A DNA stretch of 48,089 nt from a virus (lineage: Duplodnaviria > Heunggongvirae > Uroviricota > Caudoviricetes): the IMG/VR virus record IMGVR_UViG_2648501149_000023; one strand, 5' to 3'. The position numbers were made by a program, and so were the translations under genes. The notes below the pieces were generated by a model. The model had not been told where the DNA came from. It saw only the letters and a list, made by a program, of their open reading frames with translations, and did not search any database. This document shows, piece by piece, positions 1 through 40,272 of this stretch; within the stretch, counting starts at the first letter, position 1; each line of letters opens with the position of its first letter.

Positions 1-192
1 TCAGGAGCATTTCTGATTAACGCCACCGTTAAGAATCCACCCTTCAACAGCTTCACGAAGGTATGATTTGGGGTGGGTTCTGACTGGCTTCGGAAATCCG
101 TGCCGTTTGGTATAGTTCCAGATTGTCTGACGTGATGAAACACCGAGCTTGTTCATCACTTCTTTCTCAGGAATCAGGCTGGTATCGGTCAT
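1..192 (-). CDS. AlpA/Xis-family excisionase-like DNA-binding protein (63 aa)
   Basis: ORF MTDTSLIPEKEVMNKLGVSSRQTIWNYTKRHGFPKPV... ; ATG at 192 preceded by GGAGA; stop at 1-3; leftmost position in a lambdoid early-left operon where xis sits next to int (int expected beyond the window edge). Confidence 0.6.
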   Translation of the reverse strand: MTDTSLIPEKEVMNKLGVSSRQTIWNYTKRHGFPKPVRTHPKSYLREAVEGWILNGGVNQKCS

Positions 193-3357: not shown

Positions 3358-3654
3358 TCAGTCATTACTGATAGCGCCATAGCGTGAGCGGTAATTACGC
3401 AGGCGCGGGTCGATATATTCAGGGAAGTGGGTATATGTGGCTTTGCGGAATGGTCGGATTGATGTCTGGTAAATTCGCTCGCGTTCTTCTTTCTCTGCAA
3501 GCCATATACAGTGGCGAAATTCCTTTTCCTCTTTCGTTTCCTGCGGTAGCGACATTATCCGATCGTAGTTTTTTCTGAATTTATCCAGCACCTCCGATAC
3601 GGAATTGCCGGAACAGCGGCGCGGGTCATCCACACCATACAGAGGCACTGGCAT
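3358..3654 (-). CDS. Hypothetical phage protein (98 aa)
   Basis: ORF immediately downstream of ssb on the same strand; no recognisable motif. Confidence 0.4.
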
Positions 3655-3677
3655 GATTAAATCCTTATGTTGCTAAT

Positions 3678-32459: not shown

Positions 32460-33098
32460 TTAATTGCGAATGGAATCGCGGAACTCTTTGCTTGATAGAA
32501 AAGGATCTGTTCTCCTTAACTCATCATAGTTTTTATTAAACTTTCTTGCTTCACCTGGGTATCTGTTGAACAAAACATTGCAGAAAAAAGAGAGCAATAA
32601 CTCACATATGAATGCTAATACCCTGAAAAATAAAGGTATAAAAAGAAGGGAAGGTTCATTGAAGTCTCTATTCCAAACAAAATAGACAATCATCCCGACA
32701 TACCAAATTGATATCCCTATACTGATGATTGTTCCAACAGAGGTAACTACGATCCCGATTAAGTCGGACAGTCTGTTTGCCAGTAACTCATTTGAGTATC
32801 TTGCAATCATATACCGCCAACATTTTGCAATATCATCCTGATCTGTAGAGTCTTCTGGAATAGCTAGGCTTCTACATATTGAAGTAGCTCTTTTTTTCTC
32901 AACTCTTTTTGAGATCCATCCATTAAAGAGATACATCAACACCTGCGTTGCTATTCCTGCACCAAGTGATATCAAAGACATCCCCAAAAATCTCCATCCT
33001 GGAGATAGTGACTGGTACTGCCAAACAAAAAAAATTAAAAAACCCAATGAGCCTATGACATAGGCTGATGTATCGCTATATATATCTATTTTTTTCAT
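32460..33098 (-). CDS. Four-TM inner-membrane protein (SieA position; possible superinfection-exclusion or Abi effector)
   Basis: ATG at 33098 preceded by AAGGAG; four hydrophobic segments (YVIGSLGFLIFFVWQY, FLGMSLISLGAGIATQVLMYLF, LIGIVVTSVGTIISIGISIWYVGMIVYFVW, LLFIPLFFRVLAFICELLLSFFC); downstream of and co-oriented with the S24-like gene. Confidence 0.6.
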   Translation of the reverse strand: MKKIDIYSDTSAYVIGSLGFLIFFVWQYQSLSPGWRFLGMSLISLGAGIATQVLMYLFNGWISKRVEKKRATSICRSLAIPEDSTDQDDIAKCWRYMIARYSNELLANRLSDLIGIVVTSVGTIISIGISIWYVGMIVYFVWNRDFNEPSLLFIPLFFRVLAFICELLLSFFCNVLFNRYPGEARKFNKNYDELRRTDPFLSSKEFRDSIRN

Positions 33099-33162
33099 TG
33101 AGTAGCCACTCCTTAGTTTTGAGCAGAACACCGGATGATAATGTGTCGCTTCCTAAAGGATA

Positions 33163-33804
33163 TCAAAGCAACGGGATTTCAAGGTAAACTGCGGTTGCCA
33201 AAATACTAACATCTTCATTTCTAACAAGAATATTAGGATACATTGGGTTTAGGGATACTAAGTTTGTCTCTATTTCACCAATGTAAACCTGCTTGAAGCT
33301 CAATATTTGCTCTTTATCCAATGATGCTATTACATAATCTTTGCTTTTAGCTTTTACTAGAGGGCTGAACGTGACAACTGATCCTCTGGGAAAGCTAATA
33401 CCTGAACTTGTAGTCATAGCTTCACCTTCAATAGTCAATGCAAATGCAGAGTCACCAACATTGTATATTGCCGGATGAAATCTAGACGATGAATGTTCAC
33501 CTGTGTTTAGGTAATGCATAACTTCATCTAGTTTGAGGATTGGTATTTGCTTTACCAGAACGTCAGGCATGACGTTTTTTGTTCCAGGCCCCTGACCTTC
33601 ACCCAGAGCTAACCACTCAGCCGTAGTGCCTAATGCGTTGGCTAATGCCTGCAATACACGAAGCCGTGGTTTAGCCTCACCACCCTCGTATGCAGCTATT
33701 TGACGTTGAACAACACCAGCTAATTTTGACAACTGCGCCTGCGTCATACCCCTGGACTGTCTTGCCAGAGATACTCTTGATGGGAATTGATCGTCAAAAT
33801 TCAT
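33163..33804 (-). CDS. Repressor-like HTH plus S24 LexA-like domain protein with the catalytic Ser replaced by Ala
   Basis: N-terminal XRE-type HTH (...MTQAQLSKLAGVVQRQIAAYEGG...); C-terminal domain aligns with this window's own cI: IEGEAMTTS versus VEGNSMTAP (Ser to Ala) and LSFKQV versus FTFKKL (Lys kept); ends ...NPMYPNI like cI ...NPQYPMI. Confidence 0.75.
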   Translation of the reverse strand: MNFDDQFPSRVSLARQSRGMTQAQLSKLAGVVQRQIAAYEGGEAKPRLRVLQALANALGTTAEWLALGEGQGPGTKNVMPDVLVKQIPILKLDEVMHYLNTGEHSSSRFHPAIYNVGDSAFALTIEGEAMTTSSGISFPRGSVVTFSPLVKAKSKDYVIASLDKEQILSFKQVYIGEIETNLVSLNPMYPNILVRNEDVSILATAVYLEIPLL

Positions 33805-33903
33805 TAGTTCACCATAAAAAATTCATTGACTCATACTGAGTGTGAGTGAATAATCAAACTACAAAAAGTGAGATTATGAGTTTTTCAAAAACAGGAGTGC
33901 ATA
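33805..33903. promoter_or_regulatory. Divergent promoter/operator region between the S24-like gene and the arc-like gene
   Basis: 99-bp AT-rich interval with inverted/direct repeats (GACTCATA...TATGAGTT; ACTCA-tac-TGAGT). Confidence 0.4.
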
Positions 33904-34077
33904 ATGACTGAAAAGATATCTTCCATCAAGCCGCGTCAGGTTCGTTTTACAGAAAAGGTTGATTCACATATCCGCGAATCAGCAAAAAGATGCCATAGGT
34001 CAATTCAGGCAGAGATAGCTTATCGAATGGAGTTATTGATGAAACTTGAGGCAAAGGGCGATGTTGTCATCCAATAA
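33904..34077 (+). CDS. Arc/Mnt-family ribbon-helix-helix repressor (Arc-like, 57 aa)
   Basis: Hand translation MTEKISSIKPRQVRFTEKVDSHIRESAKRCHRSIQAEIAYRMELLMKLEAKGDVVIQ has an RHH-type pattern (beta strand, then ...RS...EI...); below the ORF-track cutoff. Confidence 0.55.
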   Translation: MTEKISSIKPRQVRFTEKVDSHIRESAKRCHRSIQAEIAYRMELLMKLEAKGDVVIQ

Positions 34078-34160
34078 AAATAGTGAAGCCCGGCAGTGCG
34101 CGAACACAAACCGGGCCTCTATGTCAGTAACCGTATGCAAGGAAACTAACATGAATATTG
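34078..34160 (-). ncRNA. Possible sar-like antisense RNA across the ant RBS (hairpin plus U-run on the minus strand)
   Basis: GCCCGG...CCGGGC hairpin at about 34084-34112 is followed on the minus strand by TTCACTATTTTTATTGG; the transcript would be complementary to the ant RBS and start codon; a TACAAT -10-like hexamer lies on the minus strand inside the ant 5' end. Start is not mapped. Confidence 0.3.
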
Positions 34161-34777
34161 TAGCAAAATCAGATTACAACTTCCACGGAGTTGAGTTGGT
34201 GCCCACCCGTGATATGCATGGTGTTTGGTTTACATCATCTAATATTGCATCTGCACTTAAATATGCAAATAGCCGTGCAGTAACAATGATTTATAACAAG
34301 TATAGCGATGAGTTTAGCGCCGGAATGACTCAGGTACTCGAAGTGAGTACCTCAGGAAATTATCGCAAAAAAGTGCGAGTTTTCTCACTACGCGGTGCCC
34401 ACCTAATCGCGATGTTTGCTCGCACTCCGGTAGCCAAAGAGTTCCGCCGCTGGGTGCTGGATATTTTGGATCGGCAGGCAGAATGCTCACCGATTGCAAA
34501 ACAGTTTACTGACGAAGAACTGGTTAATCTCTGCTACTTACAATTGTGGATGGAGAAGAGTCAACAAATGTGCAAACACATCTACCCAGGAATGAAGCAA
34601 ATTGGTTCTGAGCTTTCAGGAAGAATTTACGATATTGCATATGAGACTCGCTATATGTCAGAAGAAACCAAGAAATCACTTCTTCGTGAAATGAAGAATC
34701 TTGATACCAACAATTTTGTCGTAAAGAACGCTCAGCCAATGCTGACAAAACTGCGCGGCGAGGAATGGATTCATTGA
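34151..34777 (+). CDS. Antirepressor with Bro-N/AntA-type N-terminal domain
   Basis: ATG at 34151 preceded by AAGGA; ...FHGVELVPTRDMHGVWFTSSNIASALKYANSRAVTMIYNKYSDEF...KVRVFSLRGAHLIAMFARTPVAKEFRRWVLDIL... fits the Bro-N pattern (recall). Confidence 0.65.
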   Translation: MNIVAKSDYNFHGVELVPTRDMHGVWFTSSNIASALKYANSRAVTMIYNKYSDEFSAGMTQVLEVSTSGNYRKKVRVFSLRGAHLIAMFARTPVAKEFRRWVLDILDRQAECSPIAKQFTDEELVNLCYLQLWMEKSQQMCKHIYPGMKQIGSELSGRIYDIAYETRYMSEETKKSLLREMKNLDTNNFVVKNAQPMLTKLRGEEWIH

Positions 34778-34865
34778 TTGGTGCGCCGGACGGCGCAAAA
34801 AGAAAACCGCCAGTGTGCTGCTGGCGGCCTATGTCACACCCTTACTACCACATAAGGAATGCCTA

Positions 34866-35591
34866 ATGACTTTGAAGAATGTAGCAAACATCGGATCCGT
34901 TGTCACGGATAAAACCATTGACAGCCAAAGTCTTCTGATGATGGTTAATGAAGCTCGCAAGTTATGTGGAGAGCCATCAGTACGTAACAACAAATTCATC
35001 GAGAAAATTGAGGATGAATTGGAGGGCGAGACCTACACAAAAAGTGTAGGTCGGAAAAACGGGGCTGACATTGATGTTATCTCCATGACTATCAAGCAGG
35101 CGCTTCGTGTTGCTGCTCGCGAATCTAAAGCAGTTCGCCGAACACTTGTAGACAAACTTGAAAGTATGCAAGAAGCGCACATTAAAAGCGGTAAATCGTC
35201 GAGTGGACTTGTTGAGTATCGCCAGGCTCGAACATTGAAAATGACGGTTGAAGCTGTTACCAATCTGTTAGATTTGATGCCAAATCTTGCGCCGGAAGCA
35301 AAGCAGACTGCGGCAGCAAGCATAATCAACCCGATAGTTGGTTTTAATGCAATACCTCTTCCAGCAATAGAAGAGCATTACTACTCAGCAGGGGAGGTTG
35401 CAGAGCAGCTTGGAGTAACGGCAAACAAGATTGGTCGCATTGCTAACGCAAACAACCTCAAAACTGAGCAGTACGGGAAGTTCTTCTTGGATAAATCTGC
35501 GCATTCAAGCAAACAGGTGGAAGCATTCCGCTACAATGCGGAGGGTGTTAAAGCACTACAACACCTGATTCATGGGAGCAATGTTGCATAA
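34866..35591 (+). CDS. Hypothetical immI-region protein (242 aa; possible antirepressor-associated or Rha-like)
   Basis: ATG at 34866 preceded by AAGGA; weak resemblance of ...EARKLCGEPSVRNNKFIEKIE... to Rha-type N-termini; function unassigned. Confidence 0.45.
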   Translation: MTLKNVANIGSVVTDKTIDSQSLLMMVNEARKLCGEPSVRNNKFIEKIEDELEGETYTKSVGRKNGADIDVISMTIKQALRVAARESKAVRRTLVDKLESMQEAHIKSGKSSSGLVEYRQARTLKMTVEAVTNLLDLMPNLAPEAKQTAAASIINPIVGFNAIPLPAIEEHYYSAGEVAEQLGVTANKIGRIANANNLKTEQYGKFFLDKSAHSSKQVEAFRYNAEGVKALQHLIHGSNVA

Positions 35592-35812
35592 TGGCAAAGA
35601 AAAGATATGGCATTATGCCGCCAAGAATCAAAGGAAGAGCCAGGGTAAAAGGAGATGCTGGAAGGTATCACATTCTTGGAGTTCTGTGGCATGAGAGAGC
35701 TTTAATTTTAAGTAGACCTCATGGGTACATTGAAAAGGTATCTATAGATAGAGTAGAGATTCTTCCCCTTACACCTGAAGAAGAAGAAACGTACGGACTT
35801 TTTGATAACTAA
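35591..35812 (+). CDS. Hypothetical small protein (73 aa)
   Basis: ORF overlapping the upstream stop; followed by a strong terminator. Confidence 0.4.
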   Translation: MAKKRYGIMPPRIKGRARVKGDAGRYHILGVLWHERALILSRPHGYIEKVSIDRVEILPLTPEEEETYGLFDN

Positions 35813-35821
35813 CCAACTAAA

Positions 35822-35850
35822 CCCGCTTAATTGCGGGTTTTTTCTTTTCT
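35822..35850 (+). terminator. Intrinsic terminator (ACCCGC/GCGGGT hairpin plus T-run)
   Basis: ACCCGCttaattGCGGGTTTTTTCTTTTC just after the 35591..35812 ORF; the minus-strand Mnt-like gene ends within it. Confidence 0.7.
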
Positions 35851-36084
35851 AAGGATATCAGCCACAACTTCTTTTACTCGTTCCGAGATTAATGAGGCCA
35901 GCCTCTCTTCTTCATCACGATACCCGCTTACAGGTGATGGTTTGGAGAGTGATTCTTCCATCGTAGCCACAATTTCGGAATTGATAGACCTGTTATTCAT
36001 TTTTGCACGTTGCTTAATCTTAGCGTGCAACTCGTGCGTAAGCCTCAAGTGGAACTGCGCCTCATCGTATTTGCTGTACATCAT
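35827..36084 (-). CDS. mnt: Mnt-like ribbon-helix-helix repressor (85 aa)
   Basis: ...AQFHLRLTHELHAKIKQRAKMNNRSINSEIVATMEESLSKPSPVSGYRDEEERLA... parallels P22 Mnt (...RSMNSELLQIVQDALSKPSPVTGYRND..., recall); ATG at 36084 with GGTGAGG RBS. The longer ORF-track version (to 36558) runs antisense into the tailspike gene start. Confidence 0.7.
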   Translation of the reverse strand: MMYSKYDEAQFHLRLTHELHAKIKQRAKMNNRSINSEIVATMEESLSKPSPVSGYRDEEERLASLISERVKEVVADILRKEKTRN

Positions 36085-36216
36085 CAATGCCTCACCAAAT
36101 GGGTGGAATGGCATCGTAAAACCTACTGTACAAATCAACAATCGTACCATTTCGGTATGCAACAAACACCAACCGTAGCCATGCTTCGGTGATTCCTTGT
36201 ATCTGGAGCAAATTAA

Positions 36217-38382
36217 ATGACAGATTCGATAAATGCCAATGTTGTAGTGAGTATGCCTTCGCAACTCTTCACTATGGCGCGTTCTTTTAAAGCCGTAGCC
36301 AATGGTAAAATTTATATCGGTAAAATTGACACTGACCCGGTAAACCCTGAAAACCAGATTCAGGTTTATATAGAGAACGAAGACGGCTCTCACGTTCCTG
36401 TTTCGCAACCAATCATCATTAACGCTGCTGGTTATCCGGTATATAACGGACAAATTGCCAAATTCGTTACTGTACAGGGCCATTCTATGGCTGTTTATGA
36501 TGCATACGGTGCGCAGCAGTTTTATTTCCCTAATGTGTTGAAGTATGAGCCGGATCAATTAAGGTTGGAGCTTGAATCATCTGGTGGAGCAGGATTGATA
36601 GGTGGTGTTTCGAAGCCTATTACTTTTTTTGGTGCTATTGGTGATGGATTAACAAACAATACGCAGGCATTTAACGATGCAGAGATATTAGAATTCAATG
36701 ACATCTACATTCCTGATGGTGTTTATAATGTAAATAATATTAACTTAAATAAGAGATATTGGGGGCCTGGCATAGTAGTGATTAATTACCAGACTGAATA
36801 TTCTGGCTCTGGTGTTAACGACATGACCGTGTCAGGAATATACAATGGACAGCAAGATCTAAATGCAATTGTAAGAATAAAAGAAGCTTCAAATCCTGAT
36901 AAGCTTGAATTCAGTACAGATAATGGAGTTACATGGCATGACACGATAGACGTGTACAATCCAATCGATGACAGTGTATCTCCGCAACCAATCGTAATAC
37001 TTGCAGGCGGGGTGGATTTTTTCGTGAGTGGATTGAAGATAAACTTTTCTTCAACCACTGGACATACAGTAAATGACTCATGGTCATTTTTCATTCCTTC
37101 CAATCCATCAGTAATAAACACGGGAAGTGGCAGCATCGTTAAATCAGGAAGCGTTATTTTTAATGTTAGCGGAAACAATGATACTAATACTTCCGCTGGA
37201 AAAGACTCATTAGGCGGTGGAAACGTAGGAGCTAACAATACCGCATATGGGTGGAAGAGTTTGCACTCAAACACTACAGGATACGCAAATACCGCGTCTG
37301 GGATTCAGTCTATGGAAAACAATAAGACTGGTAAAAACAATTGTGCATACGGTGCTGATTCTCTAAGAGCTAACGTATCTGGTTCTGATAACGTAGCGGT
37401 TGGGGTCTTTGCGTCCGGAGCAAACACAACCGGGTACGGTAACACTGGACTTGGTAACGATGCCAATAGGTACAATGAAACAGGATTCGGAAATACCGCA
37501 GCGGGTGTGCAGGCACTGTACCACAACAAGGCCGGTAATGAGAACACAGCTTTCGGTGAATACGCATTACGCGGAGGAAATTCCAGCCTACCTACGGGAA
37601 CATCCATTCAGTATTCCGTCGCTGTAGGAGCTAAAGCCGGTTTCAACGCGTTAGGTAATAATAATACAGCTATAGGTTACGAGGCGCTATATTCTGCATC
37701 AGGATCTGATAATGTTGGTATTGGATTCGATGCAGGGTTTAAAGTAACGGCTGGTGCTTTCAATGTATTTTTAGGTTCTAATTCTGGTAACGGGTCAGAG
37801 CAGGCTACAGATGTGACAAACTGCGTCCTTATCGGAGATAATACAAAATCAACCGGAAGTAACGCAGTAGCTATCGGTAGTGGGGTAATTGCCGCTCAGA
37901 ATACTGTAGCTATAGGTAATAGTGAGCATGAATTATTCTTGCATTATGGGAAATTTATACCACAAATTGATAATGCTTTTGATATTGGTGGGCCGGATGC
38001 GAGATATAAAACAATATATGCAACTACAGGAATGATAAATACATCAAATGAAATGTTGAAAACAAAACTAACAGACATTGATGTTGCTGAAAAAAAAGCT
38101 GCACTAGAAATAAAAGATAATATTAAAAAGTTTAAGATGCTGGATTCTGTTGAGGTAAAGGGATTTGATGGTGCTAGGTGGCATTTTGGTGTTGGAGCTC
38201 AAACTGTTGGTAATATAATGAGGAAGCACGGACTTGATCCTAGTAAGTATGGGTTTTGGTGTCACGATAAAACGCATCGCGAACACATGACTGGAAATAT
38301 AGATATCTTTTGTGAAAGTTATGGTATAAGATATGACGAACTTGCAATGTTTATATTGGCATCAATATCTTTATGTGAATAA
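36217..38382 (+). CDS. Tailspike protein (P22 gp9-type head-binding domain, distinct receptor-binding domain)
   Basis: Residues 1 to about 110 ([60 protein letters not shown]...[13 protein letters not shown]...NVLKYEPDQ) match the P22 gp9 N-terminus (recall); the rest is N/G/T-rich repeat sequence (GNTxxG...); C-terminal SNEMLKTKL... segment could be an intramolecular chaperone module. Confidence 0.85.
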
Positions 38383-38408
38383 ACTTTGTAAATGAAGTGA
38401 ATTGCAAA

Positions 38409-38478
38409 TCCTTGTACTTGATTGCAAGGCTTTGTGCTCTTCGATAATGGTTAAGGTGGATCACTCCACCTTTTCATC
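38409..38478 (+). terminator. Two hairpins downstream of the tailspike gene (candidate late-operon terminators)
   Basis: CCTTGtacttgattgCAAGG followed by CTTTGTGCTCTT, then GGTGGAtcactCCACC followed by TTTTCATC. Confidence 0.45.
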
Positions 38479-39105
38479 AATCCAGTCCGCCCACCACTGC
38501 ATCATTTCTCTGCGCTTAACGTAGCGGATGCCTCACTATCACACGGTGATAGTCCATTGCTGCTTTGAAGAATGGATAGAGAACTGAGGATAAAAAGATA
38601 TCCCAAAACCCAAAATCTCATCTTTAGGATTTGCAGAAAGGTAGGCGTGAACAAATACCTGCGCATGAAAACGGAACTAGTCCAGATGTGATGTTTGTGG
38701 TGATCACATACATCATTAACGATGCTCGTTATGGTGAGTTTGATGACTACCCGCTGAAGTGAAAATTGTGTTGTGTACCAAATTGCGTACCAAACTAAAA
38801 TCACAAATCATGAAACCCTTGTTCATGGCGGTTCTTAGGGGTGTTGCGCGTAATCGTGAAACAAAAAGGTAGATTGTTGCTTACCGTCATTCATCATTAG
38901 GTTAAATCCGTTATTTCTGCTGTCTGCCAGAGTATCAAATATCACCGTGCTAATCAGCTTTAGCGCGACAATTTGGCAGCGAGTGGCAACAGATCATGTC
39001 AGATAAAAATGAGGTAGTAGTCACATTTTCTTGCACTTTATTCCAGCCAGTTCATAAGTATTTCCGTAAAAAGAACAGCTATTTGAAACACCTGAGGGTT
39101 TGCTG

Positions 39106-40272
39106 TTGAAACGCCGTCTTATTATTGCTGCTTCTTTGTTCGTTTTTAATTTATCGTCTGGTTTTGCGGCGGAAAACATTCCTTTTTCACCTCAGCCTCC
39201 AGAGATTCATGCCGGGTCCTGGGTATTGATGGATTACACCACCGGTCAGATTCTCACCGCGGGTAATGAGCATCAACAGCGCAATCCCGCCAGCCTGACA
39301 AAGCTGATGACGGGCTATGTCGTGGATCGTGCTATCGATAGTCATCGCATTACGCCAGACGATATTGTCACCGTGGGGCGCGATGCGTGGGCGAAAGATA
39401 ATCCGGTGTTTGTCGGTTCTTCACTGATGTTTCTGAAAGAGGGCGATCGCGTATCGGTACGTGATTTAAGCCGTGGTTTAATTGTGGATTCCGGAAATGA
39501 CGCTTGTGTTGCTCTGGCTGACTATATTGCCGGTGGGCAACGGCAGTTTGTTGAAATGATGAACAACTATGCCGAGAAGCTGCATCTCAAGGATACGCAT
39601 TTTGAAACAGTGCATGGTCTGGATGCACCTGGCCAGCATAGCTCGGCTTATGATTTAGCTGTGCTTTCTCGCGCTATCATCCACGGCGAGCCCGAGTTTT
39701 ATCATATGTACAGTGAGAAAAGCCTCACCTGGAACGGTATCACTCAGCAAAACCGTAACGGGTTATTGTGGGATAAAACCATGAATGTTGACGGCCTGAA
39801 AACGGGTCATACTTCTGGTGCCGGGTTTAATCTCATTGCTTCGGCTGTGGATGGGCAGCGTCGTCTCATTGCAGTGGTAATGGGGGCTGACAGTGCAAAA
39901 GGTCGTGAGGAAGAGGCAAGAAAATTACTGCGTTGGGGGCAACAAAACTTTACTACGGTGCAAATTTTGCACCGTGGGAAAAAGGTCGGAACGGAACGCA
40001 TCTGGTATGGCGATAAAGAAAATATCGCCCTGGGAACGGAACAAGAGTTCTGGATGGTGCTACCGAAAGCCGAAATTCCACATATCAAAGCCAAATATAC
40101 CCTTGATGGTAAAGAACTCACCGCGCCAATTAGCGCCCATCAGCGGGTAGGGGAAATTGAACTTTATGACCGTGATAAACAGGTGGCGCACTGGCCGCTG
40201 GTTACCCTGGAATCTGTCGGGGAAGGCAGCATGTTTTCCCGGCTGAGTGATTATTTCCACCATAAGGCCTGA
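39106..40272 (+). CDS. dacD: D-alanyl-D-alanine carboxypeptidase DacD (PBP6b)
   Basis: MKRRLIIAASLFVFNLSSGFAAENIPFSPQPPEIHAGSWVLMDYTTGQILTAGNEHQQRNPASLTKLMTGY... with the SxxK motif; TTG start at 39106 after GAGGG (the ORF track starts at an upstream TTG, 39100). Confidence 0.9.
   Translation: MKRRLIIAASLFVFNLSSGFAAENIPFSPQPPEIHAGSWVLMDYTTGQILTAGNEHQQRNPASLTKLMTGYVVDRAIDSHRITPDDIVTVGRDAWAKDNPVFVGSSLMFLKEGDRVSVRDLSRGLIVDSGNDACVALADYIAGGQRQFVEMMNNYAEKLHLKDTHFETVHGLDAPGQHSSAYDLAVLSRAIIHGEPEFYHMYSEKSLTWNGITQQNRNGLLWDKTMNVDGLKTGHTSGAGFNLIASAVDGQRRLIAVVMGADSAKGREEEARKLLRWGQQNFTTVQILHRGKKVGTERIWYGDKENIALGTEQEFWMVLPKAEIPHIKAKYTLDGKELTAPISAHQRVGEIELYDRDKQVAHWPLVTLESVGEGSMFSRLSDYFHHKA

What the first reader, a model, noticed from the sequence alone, without database searches (positions are those of the whole stretch)
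38383..39100. Prophage-chromosome junction upstream of dacD with an operator-like palindrome
The roughly 700 bp between the tailspike stop and dacD carry no convincing ORF, have two hairpin terminators, and contain the perfect palindrome ACTATCAC-acg-GTGATAGT (about 38546-38566), which resembles lambda-type operator half-sites (TATCAC...GTGATA). The right attachment site must lie in this interval; the integrase and left junction are outside the window.
Basis: partly seen in the sequence, partly recalled or inferred. Interest (0 to 1): 0.45.

Follow-up and report, generated by a model that had tools for sequence, protein, structure and literature searches.

The report
Prophage right end in sbcB
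This stretch is the well-known right end of a phage that inserts into the start of the E. coli sbcB gene, and the "operator-like" palindrome is a chance feature of a dead DNA-repair gene, perfected by one mutation seen only in this strain.

Summary
The palindrome ACTATCAC-acg-GTGATAGT exists at 38535-38553, not 38546-38566.

The prophage/chromosome junction does lie in the interval. Homology to prophage-free E. coli starts at 38849. [quoted passage not shown]

Between tailspike and core there are two gene wrecks rather than empty DNA:
- a 60-bp 3' remnant of an IntS-type integrase gene (38461-38520, minus strand);
- a HumD (UmuD'-like) pseudogene that lacks its LexA box and its first ~48 codons (38521-38762, plus strand).

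Next come two arm-type integrase repeats, TGYGTACCAAA (38772-38794).

The palindrome is codons L-S-H-G-D-S of the HumD pseudogene. All nine relatives examined have GTGATgGT, giving arms that match at 7 of 8 positions. None of 5,426 complete E. coli genomes carries the window's version, while 257 carry the imperfect one. Intact humD genes have no dyad at this position. No similar site occurs elsewhere in the prophage. The spacing of the hexamers differs from lambda operators (3 bp against 5 bp).

Verdict: an ordinary, already described attR, with a chance palindrome.

The parts
36217..38382 (+). Tailspike gene, the last late gene of the P22-like prophage. It has a P22 head-binding N-terminus and an endosialidase-like / S74 chaperone C-terminus.
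   Evidence: ORF list; Pfam Head_binding 1.3e-65, End_tail_spike, Peptidase_S74
38410..38429 (+). Hairpin 1 (7 pairs, 6-nt loop, T-rich tail). Likely an intrinsic terminator for late transcription.
   Evidence: Terminator scan; RNA fold; a similar stem is present in relatives
38453..38472 (+). Hairpin 2: AAGGTGGA-tcac-TCCACCTT followed by TTTCA. It overlaps the stop codon of the integrase remnant.
   Evidence: The stem is weakened in mEp234, so terminator function is inferred only.
38405..38521 (.). Block shared with P22-like phages that carry an IntS-type (argW) integrase directly after their tailspike. This is the left edge of the integration-module swap.
   Evidence: Window 37400-38521 is 94.6% identical to the tailspike-intS junction of APEC O2-211. 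The same 38405-38521 is found in phages JEP4, vB_EcoP-683R2 (annotated 'putative integrase'), HZ41 and Gally.
38461..38520 (-). 3' remnant (about 19 codons plus stop) of an IntS-type tyrosine integrase gene: ...KRREMMQWWADWIDEKVE*
   Evidence: Translation; DNA identity with the 3' end of intS in APEC O2-211; PGAP pseudogene fragment at the same place in GENOMIC22-004
38521..38762 (+). HumD (UmuD'-like, S24-fold) pseudogene. It lacks its promoter, LexA box and first ~48 codons, and carries an in-frame TGA (38566-38568) and a frameshift.
   Evidence: Conceptual translation hits NCBIfam NF051876 HumD, profile positions 49-128 of 129, E=1.5e-13. Codon-by-codon alignment with intact HK140 and FT130 genes. 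PGAP annotates the same stretch as a HumD/S24 pseudogene in E54 and VG38-53E1.
38535..38553 (.). The palindrome ACTATCAC-acg-GTGATAGT. It corresponds to codons (S)-L-S-H-G-D-S of the HumD pseudogene. A at 38551 (GGT to AGT) is private to this window and is what makes the dyad perfect.
   Evidence: Exact 40-mer: 0 of 5,426 genomes. The GTGATgGT version: 257 genomes.
38772..38794 (+). Two direct arm-type repeats, TGTGTACCAAA and TGCGTACCAAA, in the P arm of attR. They are presumed integrase N-domain binding sites.
   Evidence: The only two matches in the window, 0.11 expected. Three more copies lie in the P' arm of mEp234 attP and in VG38 attL.
38849..38861 (.). 13-bp common core CGTAATCGTGAAA (crossover region) of attR. 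Chromosomal homology begins at 38849.
   Evidence: Alignment with the prophage-free locus and with attL/attR of VG38-53E1. Invariant in 10 of 10 copies. Annotated attP 'type 2851' in mEp234. Published for 2851 and Sf101 (PMC4159516).
38835..38897 (-). Orphaned 5' stump of sbcB: start codon at 38897-38895, 16 native codons down to the core, then reading into phage DNA to a TAA at 38837-38835 (MMNDGKQQSTFLFHDYAQHP*).
   Evidence: K-12-like annotation mapped onto the window; sequence read directly
38898..39105 (.). Native sbcB-dacD divergent intergenic region. dacD starts at the TTG at 39106.
   Evidence: 97-99.6% identical in about 5,400 E. coli genomes; annotation of L003
1..192 (-). Excisionase (AlpA/HTH_17 type) of the 2851-type integration module. 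The first ~20 nt of the window are the end of int, and attL lies beyond the window.
   Evidence: 100% identity to mEp234 and VG38-53E1 int-xis; phrog_66 excisionase

Best explanation
Window 38383-39100 is the right end (attR, arrangement P-O-B') of a P22-like prophage. The prophage uses the phage-2851/Sf101-type tyrosine integrase module and is inserted at codon 17 of sbcB, the gene divergent from dacD.

How it works. Recombination happened within the 13-bp identity CGTAATCGTGAAA (38849-38861). Int would bind the arm-type repeats TGYGTACCAAA at 38772-38794, with three more in the P' arm at attL. Together with the AlpA-type Xis (window 1-192, minus strand) it would excise the phage. The phage's P' side carries a surrogate sbcB 5' end, so sbcB is rebuilt at attL. 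A 16-codon stump with the native promoter region stays next to dacD.

The 465 bp between tailspike and core are the scar of an integration-module exchange:
- two hairpins and the last ~19 codons of an IntS-type int gene;
- fused to them, the 3' two-thirds of a once SOS-regulated humD gene.

The palindrome is part of that dead humD coding sequence (L-S-H-G-D-S). It has no function, and a private G-to-A change at 38551 made it perfect.

Shown: the junction, the core, the arm repeats, the identity of both pseudogenes, the rarity of the perfect dyad, and sbcB reconstitution in a relative. Inferred: Int binding to the repeats, terminator activity of the hairpins, and the historical order of events.
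For: Junction and core:
- About 4,900 of 5,420 matching genomes match only 38849-39100, and 485 carry the whole block.
- The pairwise alignment puts the breakpoint at 38848|38849.
- attL and attR of VG38-53E1 share exactly CGTAATCGTGAAA.
- sbcB is a known Stx2c-phage insertion site.

The block belongs to the phage: 38405-38861 lies between the tail genes and int in the phage genomes mEp234, Sf101, 2851, EC.P3 and E212.

Arm repeats.

sbcB rebuilt at attL: 474 aa, 98% identical to K-12 SbcB, with the new N-terminus MTDTDKQP.

Int remnant.

HumD pseudogene. Intact copies with LexA boxes.

Palindrome is not functional:
- 9 of 9 relatives have arms matching at 7 of 8 positions, the centre varies (ACG, ATA, ACT), and one copy has a 1-nt deletion in the left arm.
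- Variable columns are 4 of 19 in the palindrome against 29 of 171 in the surrounding pseudogene.
- 0 genomes carry the perfect version and 257 the imperfect one.
- There is no second copy, and no half-site enrichment, in the window.
- The intergenic regions next to the two prophage repressors show no related sequence.
- No Rfam family matches.
Against: - The imperfect (7 of 8) dyad is present in every copy of this pseudogene lineage examined. That is expected from shared descent at 92-97% identity, but it does not by itself exclude a function.
- The RNA hairpin on the plus strand folds somewhat better than shuffles (z = -2.2).
- The int'/humD' scar is widespread in otherwise unrelated lambdoid, Stx and P22-like phages. 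This could hint at some selected role for the block, but recent spread together with the int module explains it equally well.
- No binding, transcription or excision experiment was possible here.
- attL of this very genome is outside the window, so sbcB reconstitution is shown only in a relative.
Confidence: 0.93

Rival explanations
1. The palindrome is an operator: a dimeric helix-turn-helix repressor (lambda-cI-like, the second S24 repressor at 33163-33804, or a host factor) binds it to control transcription entering attR, dacD or sbcB.
For: Perfect 8-3-8 dyad. The TATCAC/GTGATA hexamers equal the outer hexamers of lambda operators and nearly those of tetO (own knowledge). The prophage encodes two CI/LexA-type repressors.
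Against: - It is a single copy, and no related site lies in either repressor's control region or anywhere else in 48 kb.
- The hexamer spacing is 3 bp, against 5 bp in lambda and 1 bp in tetO.
- No promoter-like site is nearby.
- It lies inside a pseudogene and aligns codon for codon with intact humD genes that lack the dyad.
- It is perfect only here, with 0 of 5,426 genomes sharing it, and is no more conserved than its flanks.
- Phages with the same int/attP but an intact humD (HK140, HK544, FT130 prophage) lack the site altogether.
Confidence: 0.03
2. The dyad acts at the RNA or DNA structural level, as a hairpin that terminates or stabilises a transcript, or as an extra recombination or architectural site of an extended attP P arm.
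For: The plus-strand RNA hairpin has a free energy of -16 kcal/mol, z = -2.2. It lies on the P-arm side of the core.
Against: - No T-run follows it on either strand, and the minus strand gives z = -0.6.
- It is 296 bp from the core, while the arm repeats are 55-77 bp away.
- The sequence shared by all 2851-type attP phages starts only at about 38681-38694, so the dyad is dispensable for integration.
- A left-arm deletion in GENOMIC22-004 and the right-arm mismatch in all relatives are not compensated.
Confidence: 0.03
3. 38405-38848 is not part of the prophage. It is the relic of an older element that sat at sbcB, and the present phage inserted beside it.
For: The block consists only of gene wrecks (an int 3' end and a humD fragment), as expected of a decayed island.
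Against: - The identical block lies inside the genomes of isolated, induced phages (mEp234, Sf101, 2851, EC.P3, E212), between tail genes and attP-int.
- It is absent from every prophage-free sbcB-dacD locus.
- Chromosomal homology starts only at the published core.
Confidence: 0.01

Closest known systems
[quoted passage not shown]
   Same: Identical 13-bp core CGTAATCGTGAAA. Same P-arm sequence (92-95% identity over 38405-38861), same arm repeats, and an identical xis and int 3' end at the other end of the window. Same chromosomal target next to dacD.
   Different: Nothing essential. The tail module to the left differs (a different tailspike from Sf101, and tail fibres in mEp234 and 2851). 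This copy of the humD scar has extra private mutations, including the one that perfects the palindrome.
Phage lambda attP (POP') with arm-type and core-type Int sites and Xis-dependent excision
   Same: Tyrosine integrase plus small excisionase. Direct arm-type repeats lie on both sides of a short common core (two in P, three in P'). The prophage order is attL-int-xis...tail genes-attR.
   Different: The core lies inside a protein-coding gene (sbcB), whose 5' end the phage replaces. int is transcribed away from attP and converges with xis. The arm consensus TGYGTACCAAA is unrelated to lambda's. IHF, Fis and Xis sites were not identified.
Lambda OL/OR operators (17 bp, TATCACCGC half-sites) and tetO (TCCCTATCAGTGATAGAGA)
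   Same: The outer hexamers TATCAC/GTGATA (lambda) and CTATCA/TGATAG (tetO) occur in the palindrome (sequence; operator sequences from own knowledge).
   Different: The spacing between hexamers is 3 bp here, against 5 bp in lambda. For the tetO-type hexamers it is 5 bp here against 1 bp. It is a single site rather than a tandem operator set, with no adjacent promoter or regulated gene, and no lambda-cI or TetR gene in the window.
HumD of phage P1 / UmuD'-like S24-fold proteins encoded next to attP in HK140 and the FT130 prophage
   Same: The plus-strand translation of 38521-38762 aligns with residues 49-129 of the family, including the C-terminal VITYIINDARxGEFDDYPLK.
   Different: Here it is a pseudogene. 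The LexA box, start codon and 48 codons are lost, and there is a stop and a frameshift.

Membership tests
attR of a 2851/Sf101-type sbcB-integrating prophage | 13-bp common core CGTAATCGTGAAA at the phage-chromosome boundary | tested here: met
   38849-38861. It lies at the exact start of homology to the prophage-free locus and is identical at attL and attR of a relative. Published core: PMC4159516.
attR of a 2851/Sf101-type sbcB-integrating prophage | Insertion within the 5' end of sbcB, adjacent to dacD | tested here: met
   The sbcB start codon and 16 codons remain at 38897-38849 (minus strand), followed by the native sbcB-dacD intergenic region.
attR of a 2851/Sf101-type sbcB-integrating prophage | Cognate 2851-type integrase and excisionase at the other prophage end | tested here: inconclusive
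   xis and the last ~20 nt of int are in the window and are 100% identical to mEp234 and VG38-53E1. The body of int and attL lie outside the window.
attR of a 2851/Sf101-type sbcB-integrating prophage | The phage-side arm is the same DNA as in free phage genomes of this type | tested here: met
   38405-38861 is 92-95% identical to EC.P3, E212, mEp234, 2851 and Sf101, and lies between tail genes and int in each.
attR of a 2851/Sf101-type sbcB-integrating prophage | Excision regenerates attP and attB (functional site) | not testable with these tools
   This needs PCR for the circular form or for the empty site in this strain.
Lambda-type (cI) operator | 17-bp site with two TATCACCGC-like half-sites, the outer hexamers 5 bp apart | tested here: not met
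   The hexamers match but are 3 bp apart, giving a 15-bp site (lambda operator sequences from own knowledge).
Lambda-type (cI) operator | Several adjacent operators overlapping a promoter next to the repressor gene | tested here: not met
   There is a single site and no match with 2 or fewer mismatches in either immunity region. No promoter-like site is nearby. The repressor genes are 5 and 30 kb away.
Lambda-type (cI) operator | Conservation of the site among phages that share the region | tested here: not met
   All nine relatives have an imperfect dyad. Variability in the site equals that of the flanks. 0 of 5,426 genomes carry the perfect site.
HumD / UmuD'-like S24 family (as an intact gene) | Full-length ~129-aa ORF matching NF051876 above its cut-off | tested here: not met
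   Only profile positions 49-128 are matched, at 50.8 bits against a cut-off of 120, with an internal stop and a frameshift. It is a pseudogene of the family.
Intrinsic terminators after the tailspike | GC-rich stem-loop followed by a T-run | tested here: inconclusive
   Hairpin 1 passes the consensus scan. Hairpin 2 has 8 perfect pairs but only four T's after it. Its stem is degraded in mEp234. No transcript data are available.

The most novel reading that the evidence does not exclude
The int'-humD' scar (38405-38762), including its near-palindrome, is kept in many unrelated sbcB-integrating phages because it does something. It might act as an insulator or protein-binding element that shields attP/int, or the adjacent chromosomal dacD, from late-operon read-through. 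In that case the dyad would be a genuine binding site for an unidentified factor.
Probability: 0.03. Interest if true: 0.35.

Novelty: already known. Interest (0 to 1): 0.08.

Why it matters
It matters little beyond correct annotation. The analysis places this prophage's attR to the base pair. It identifies sbcB, not the dacD upstream region, as the insertion target. It also assigns the prophage to the 2851/Sf101 integration type, which is also used by Stx2c phages.

The analysis shows that the apparently empty spacer is a fossil record of phage mosaicism: an IntS-type integration module was replaced by the sbcB-type module, which destroyed an SOS-regulated humD gene in the process.

It also illustrates that perfect dyads with familiar half-sites can arise by a single mutation in dead coding sequence.

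Tried and rejected
- Related operator sites. I searched the whole window for TATCAC-N3-GTGATA with up to 3 mismatches and for the half-site CTATCAC. Counts were at chance level and nothing lay in the immunity regions. I read both repressor control regions directly and found no similarity.
- The minus-strand 100-aa ORF 38502-38804 (annotated as hypothetical in Sf101). I rejected it because its translation is implausible, it is antisense to clear HumD homology, and its frame is not preserved in relatives.
- A second copy of the core in the window, which would mark attL. There is none, and attL is outside the window.
- Rfam at a permissive threshold on 38200-39200. No family matched.
- Pfam on the pseudogene translation. 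Nothing significant; only NCBIfam HumD detects it.
- The source genome among 5,426 complete E. coli genomes. It is not present. The best matches are mosaics covering either the tailspike side or the attR side.
- The idea that the block is a relic of an older island. Rejected because the block is inside free phage genomes.

Full report
**1. What is in the sequence**

The tailspike ORF ends at 38382, and dacD begins with the TTG at 39106. The palindrome ACTATCAC-acg-GTGATAGT is real but lies at 38535-38553, about 11 bp left of the coordinates given.

Two hairpins follow the tailspike stop:
- 38410-38429: 7 pairs, flagged as terminator-like by the consensus scan.
- 38453-38472: 8 perfect pairs followed by TTTTCA.

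A perfect 8+8 dyad is not rare. The window contains 29 such inverted repeats with loops of 10 nt or less (about 20 distinct sites), against about 10 in simulated sequence. A 718-bp stretch of this composition has at least one in 14% of simulations.

**2. Where the prophage ends**

I compared 38383-39100 with 5,426 complete E. coli genomes. Of these, 5,420 match, but about 4,900 match only 38849-39100, where the annotated feature is the start of sbcB. A further 485 carry nearly the whole interval.

Alignment with a K-12-like, prophage-free locus puts the breakpoint at 38848|38849. On the minus strand, the sbcB start codon is at 38897-38895. Sixteen native codons (MMNDGKQQSTFLFHDY) run down to the breakpoint and then read into phage DNA, ending at a stop at 38837-38835. 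So the insertion target is codon 17 of sbcB, the gene divergent from dacD. The region 38898-39105 is the untouched sbcB-dacD intergenic region.

In a related lysogen (VG38-53E1), attL and attR share exactly CGTAATCGTGAAA, which is 38849-38861 in the window. Beyond the core, the phage side of attL carries a degenerate copy of the sbcB 5' end. This rebuilds a full-length SbcB (474 aa, 98% identical to K-12) with a new N-terminus, MTDTDKQP.

This 13-bp sequence is annotated as 'prophage attachment site (type 2851)' in phage mEp234. [quoted passage not shown]

Two direct repeats, TGTGTACCAAA and TGCGTACCAAA, lie at 38772-38794. They are the only matches in the window, with 0.11 expected by chance. 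Three more lie in the P' arm between the core and int. This is the classical layout of arm-type integrase sites.

The first 230 bases of the window are 100% identical to the int 3' end and xis of mEp234 and VG38-53E1.

**3. What fills the space between tailspike and core**

The block 38405-38861 is 92-95% identical to DNA between the tail genes and int in isolated phages with quite different tails: EC.P3, E212, mEp234, 2851, several Stx phages and Sf101. It is therefore phage DNA, not an older chromosomal relic. It consists of two gene wrecks.

*(a) An integrase remnant.* Window 37400-38521 is 94.6% identical to the end of a P22-like prophage in APEC O2-211, where the tailspike is followed directly by intS and argW. 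The minus strand of 38461-38520 encodes ...KRREMMQWWADWIDEKVE*, the C-terminus of that integrase type. PGAP marks a fragment at this position in another genome.

*(b) A HumD pseudogene.* From about 38521 the plus strand reads VADASLSHGDSPLLL*RMDRELRIKRY..., and after a frameshift...VITYIINDARYGEFDDYPLK*. This translation matches the NCBIfam HumD model (UmuD'-like) over profile positions 49-128 of 129, with E=1.5e-13. It aligns codon for codon with the intact genes of phage HK140 and of the FT130 prophage. Both intact genes sit next to the same attP and are preceded by a canonical LexA box. PGAP annotates the same stretch as a HumD/S24 pseudogene in two relatives.

The simplest history is an illegitimate join. 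It replaced an IntS-type integration module with the sbcB-type module, leaving 60 bp of the old int gene fused to the inside of humD.

**4. The palindrome**

It spans the codons (TC)A CTA TCA CAC GGT GAT AGT, which read S-L-S-H-G-D-S, in the HumD pseudogene. The evidence against a function is as follows.

- Intact HK140 has ...TCA ATG TCT CCA TGT GAT GGT... at this position, and FT130 has ...TCA CTG ACA CCG AAA GAC GGT... Neither forms a dyad.
- In all nine other copies of the pseudogene that I aligned, the right arm is GTGATgGT, so the arms match at 7 of 8 positions. The centre varies (ACG, ATA, ACT), and one copy has lost the first base of the left arm.
- The 19 columns of the palindrome are as variable as the surrounding pseudogene: 4 of 19 against 29 of 171. 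The 13-bp core, by contrast, is invariant.
- A 40-nt query with the window's version finds no complete E. coli genome. The same query with G at the position corresponding to 38551 finds 257.
- The perfect dyad is thus created by a private G-to-A substitution (Gly to Ser) in a decaying pseudogene. The window's copy also has private TCA-to-CCA and TGT-to-TGA changes nearby.
- No related site exists elsewhere in the window, including the control regions of the two CI/LexA-type repressors.
- No promoter-like site is adjacent, and no Rfam family matches.
- Phages that share the same int/attP but keep an intact humD lack the dyad.
- The resemblance to lambda operators is limited to the outer hexamers. 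They are 3 bp apart here, against 5 bp in lambda's 17-bp operators (own knowledge). The same letters equally resemble tetO half-sites at the wrong spacing. Such resemblance is therefore not diagnostic.

**5. Verdict**

This is a prophage-chromosome junction, the att site lies in the interval, and int and attL are outside the window. It can now be made base-exact. The operator interpretation is not supported.

The whole arrangement is an already described attachment-site type. The only mildly new detail is the explicit reading of the spacer as an int'/humD' module-swap scar.

Interest is low. A residual probability of about 3% remains that the conserved scar or its near-dyad has some function.

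Noticed in passing
window 32460-36558: The immI-like region left of the tailspike is unusual for a P22-like phage. It holds a SieA-like gene (32460-33131, minus strand), then a LexA/CI-type repressor (HTH_3 + Peptidase_S24, 33163-33804, minus strand) where P22 has Mnt. This repressor is divergent from two antirepressor genes (34046-34777, Bro-N + P22_AR_C; 34815-35591, phrog_1726). An Arc-like gene lies in the 3' third of ORF 35827-36558 (minus strand). A cleavable S24 repressor guarding the antirepressors would couple them to SOS.
   Followed up: partly
window 33805-33904: The divergent control region between the second repressor and the first antirepressor contains the dyad ACTCA-tac-TGAGT next to a TTGACT-like hexamer. 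It is a candidate operator and is unrelated to the 38535 palindrome.
   Followed up: no
L007 9180-9530 (VG38-53E1 attL); outside the window: At attL the phage supplies sbcB with a new N-terminus (MTDTDKQP in place of MMNDGKQQS) and new upstream DNA shared with the int promoter region. Exonuclease I expression in lysogens presumably depends on phage-borne signals.
   Followed up: partly
L002 about 3640-3660; L009 1899-1918: Intact humD genes next to the same attP (FT130 prophage, phage HK140) are preceded by canonical LexA boxes: TACTGTATACATACACAGTA and TACTGTATTCATATACAGT. In HK140 the box sits between a divergent dinI and an orf-humD operon. This is an SOS-regulated mutagenesis/RecA-modulation moron at the attP-proximal end.
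   Followed up: partly
window 36217-38382: The tailspike combines a P22-type head-binding domain with an endosialidase-like catalytic segment and a C-terminal Peptidase_S74 intramolecular chaperone. Its 3' 1 kb is 94.6% identical to tailspikes of argW-integrated prophages in avian pathogenic E. coli.
   Followed up: no
window 38405 (left edge of the shared block): The identity breakpoint between different tail modules and the common attP-proximal block falls in hairpin 1 (38410-38429) in every phage compared. This suggests the terminator stem is a recurrent recombination joint between modules.
   Followed up: no
L004 3739-4967: Strain E54 carries an IS2 inserted between attR and dacD, in the sbcB-dacD intergenic region. 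The Sf101 paper also reports frequent IS disruption of this locus in Shigella.
   Followed up: no
whole window: No complete RefSeq E. coli genome contains this exact combination of tailspike and attR block. The best hits cover one side or the other, so the source is a mosaic not represented in that collection.
   Followed up: no
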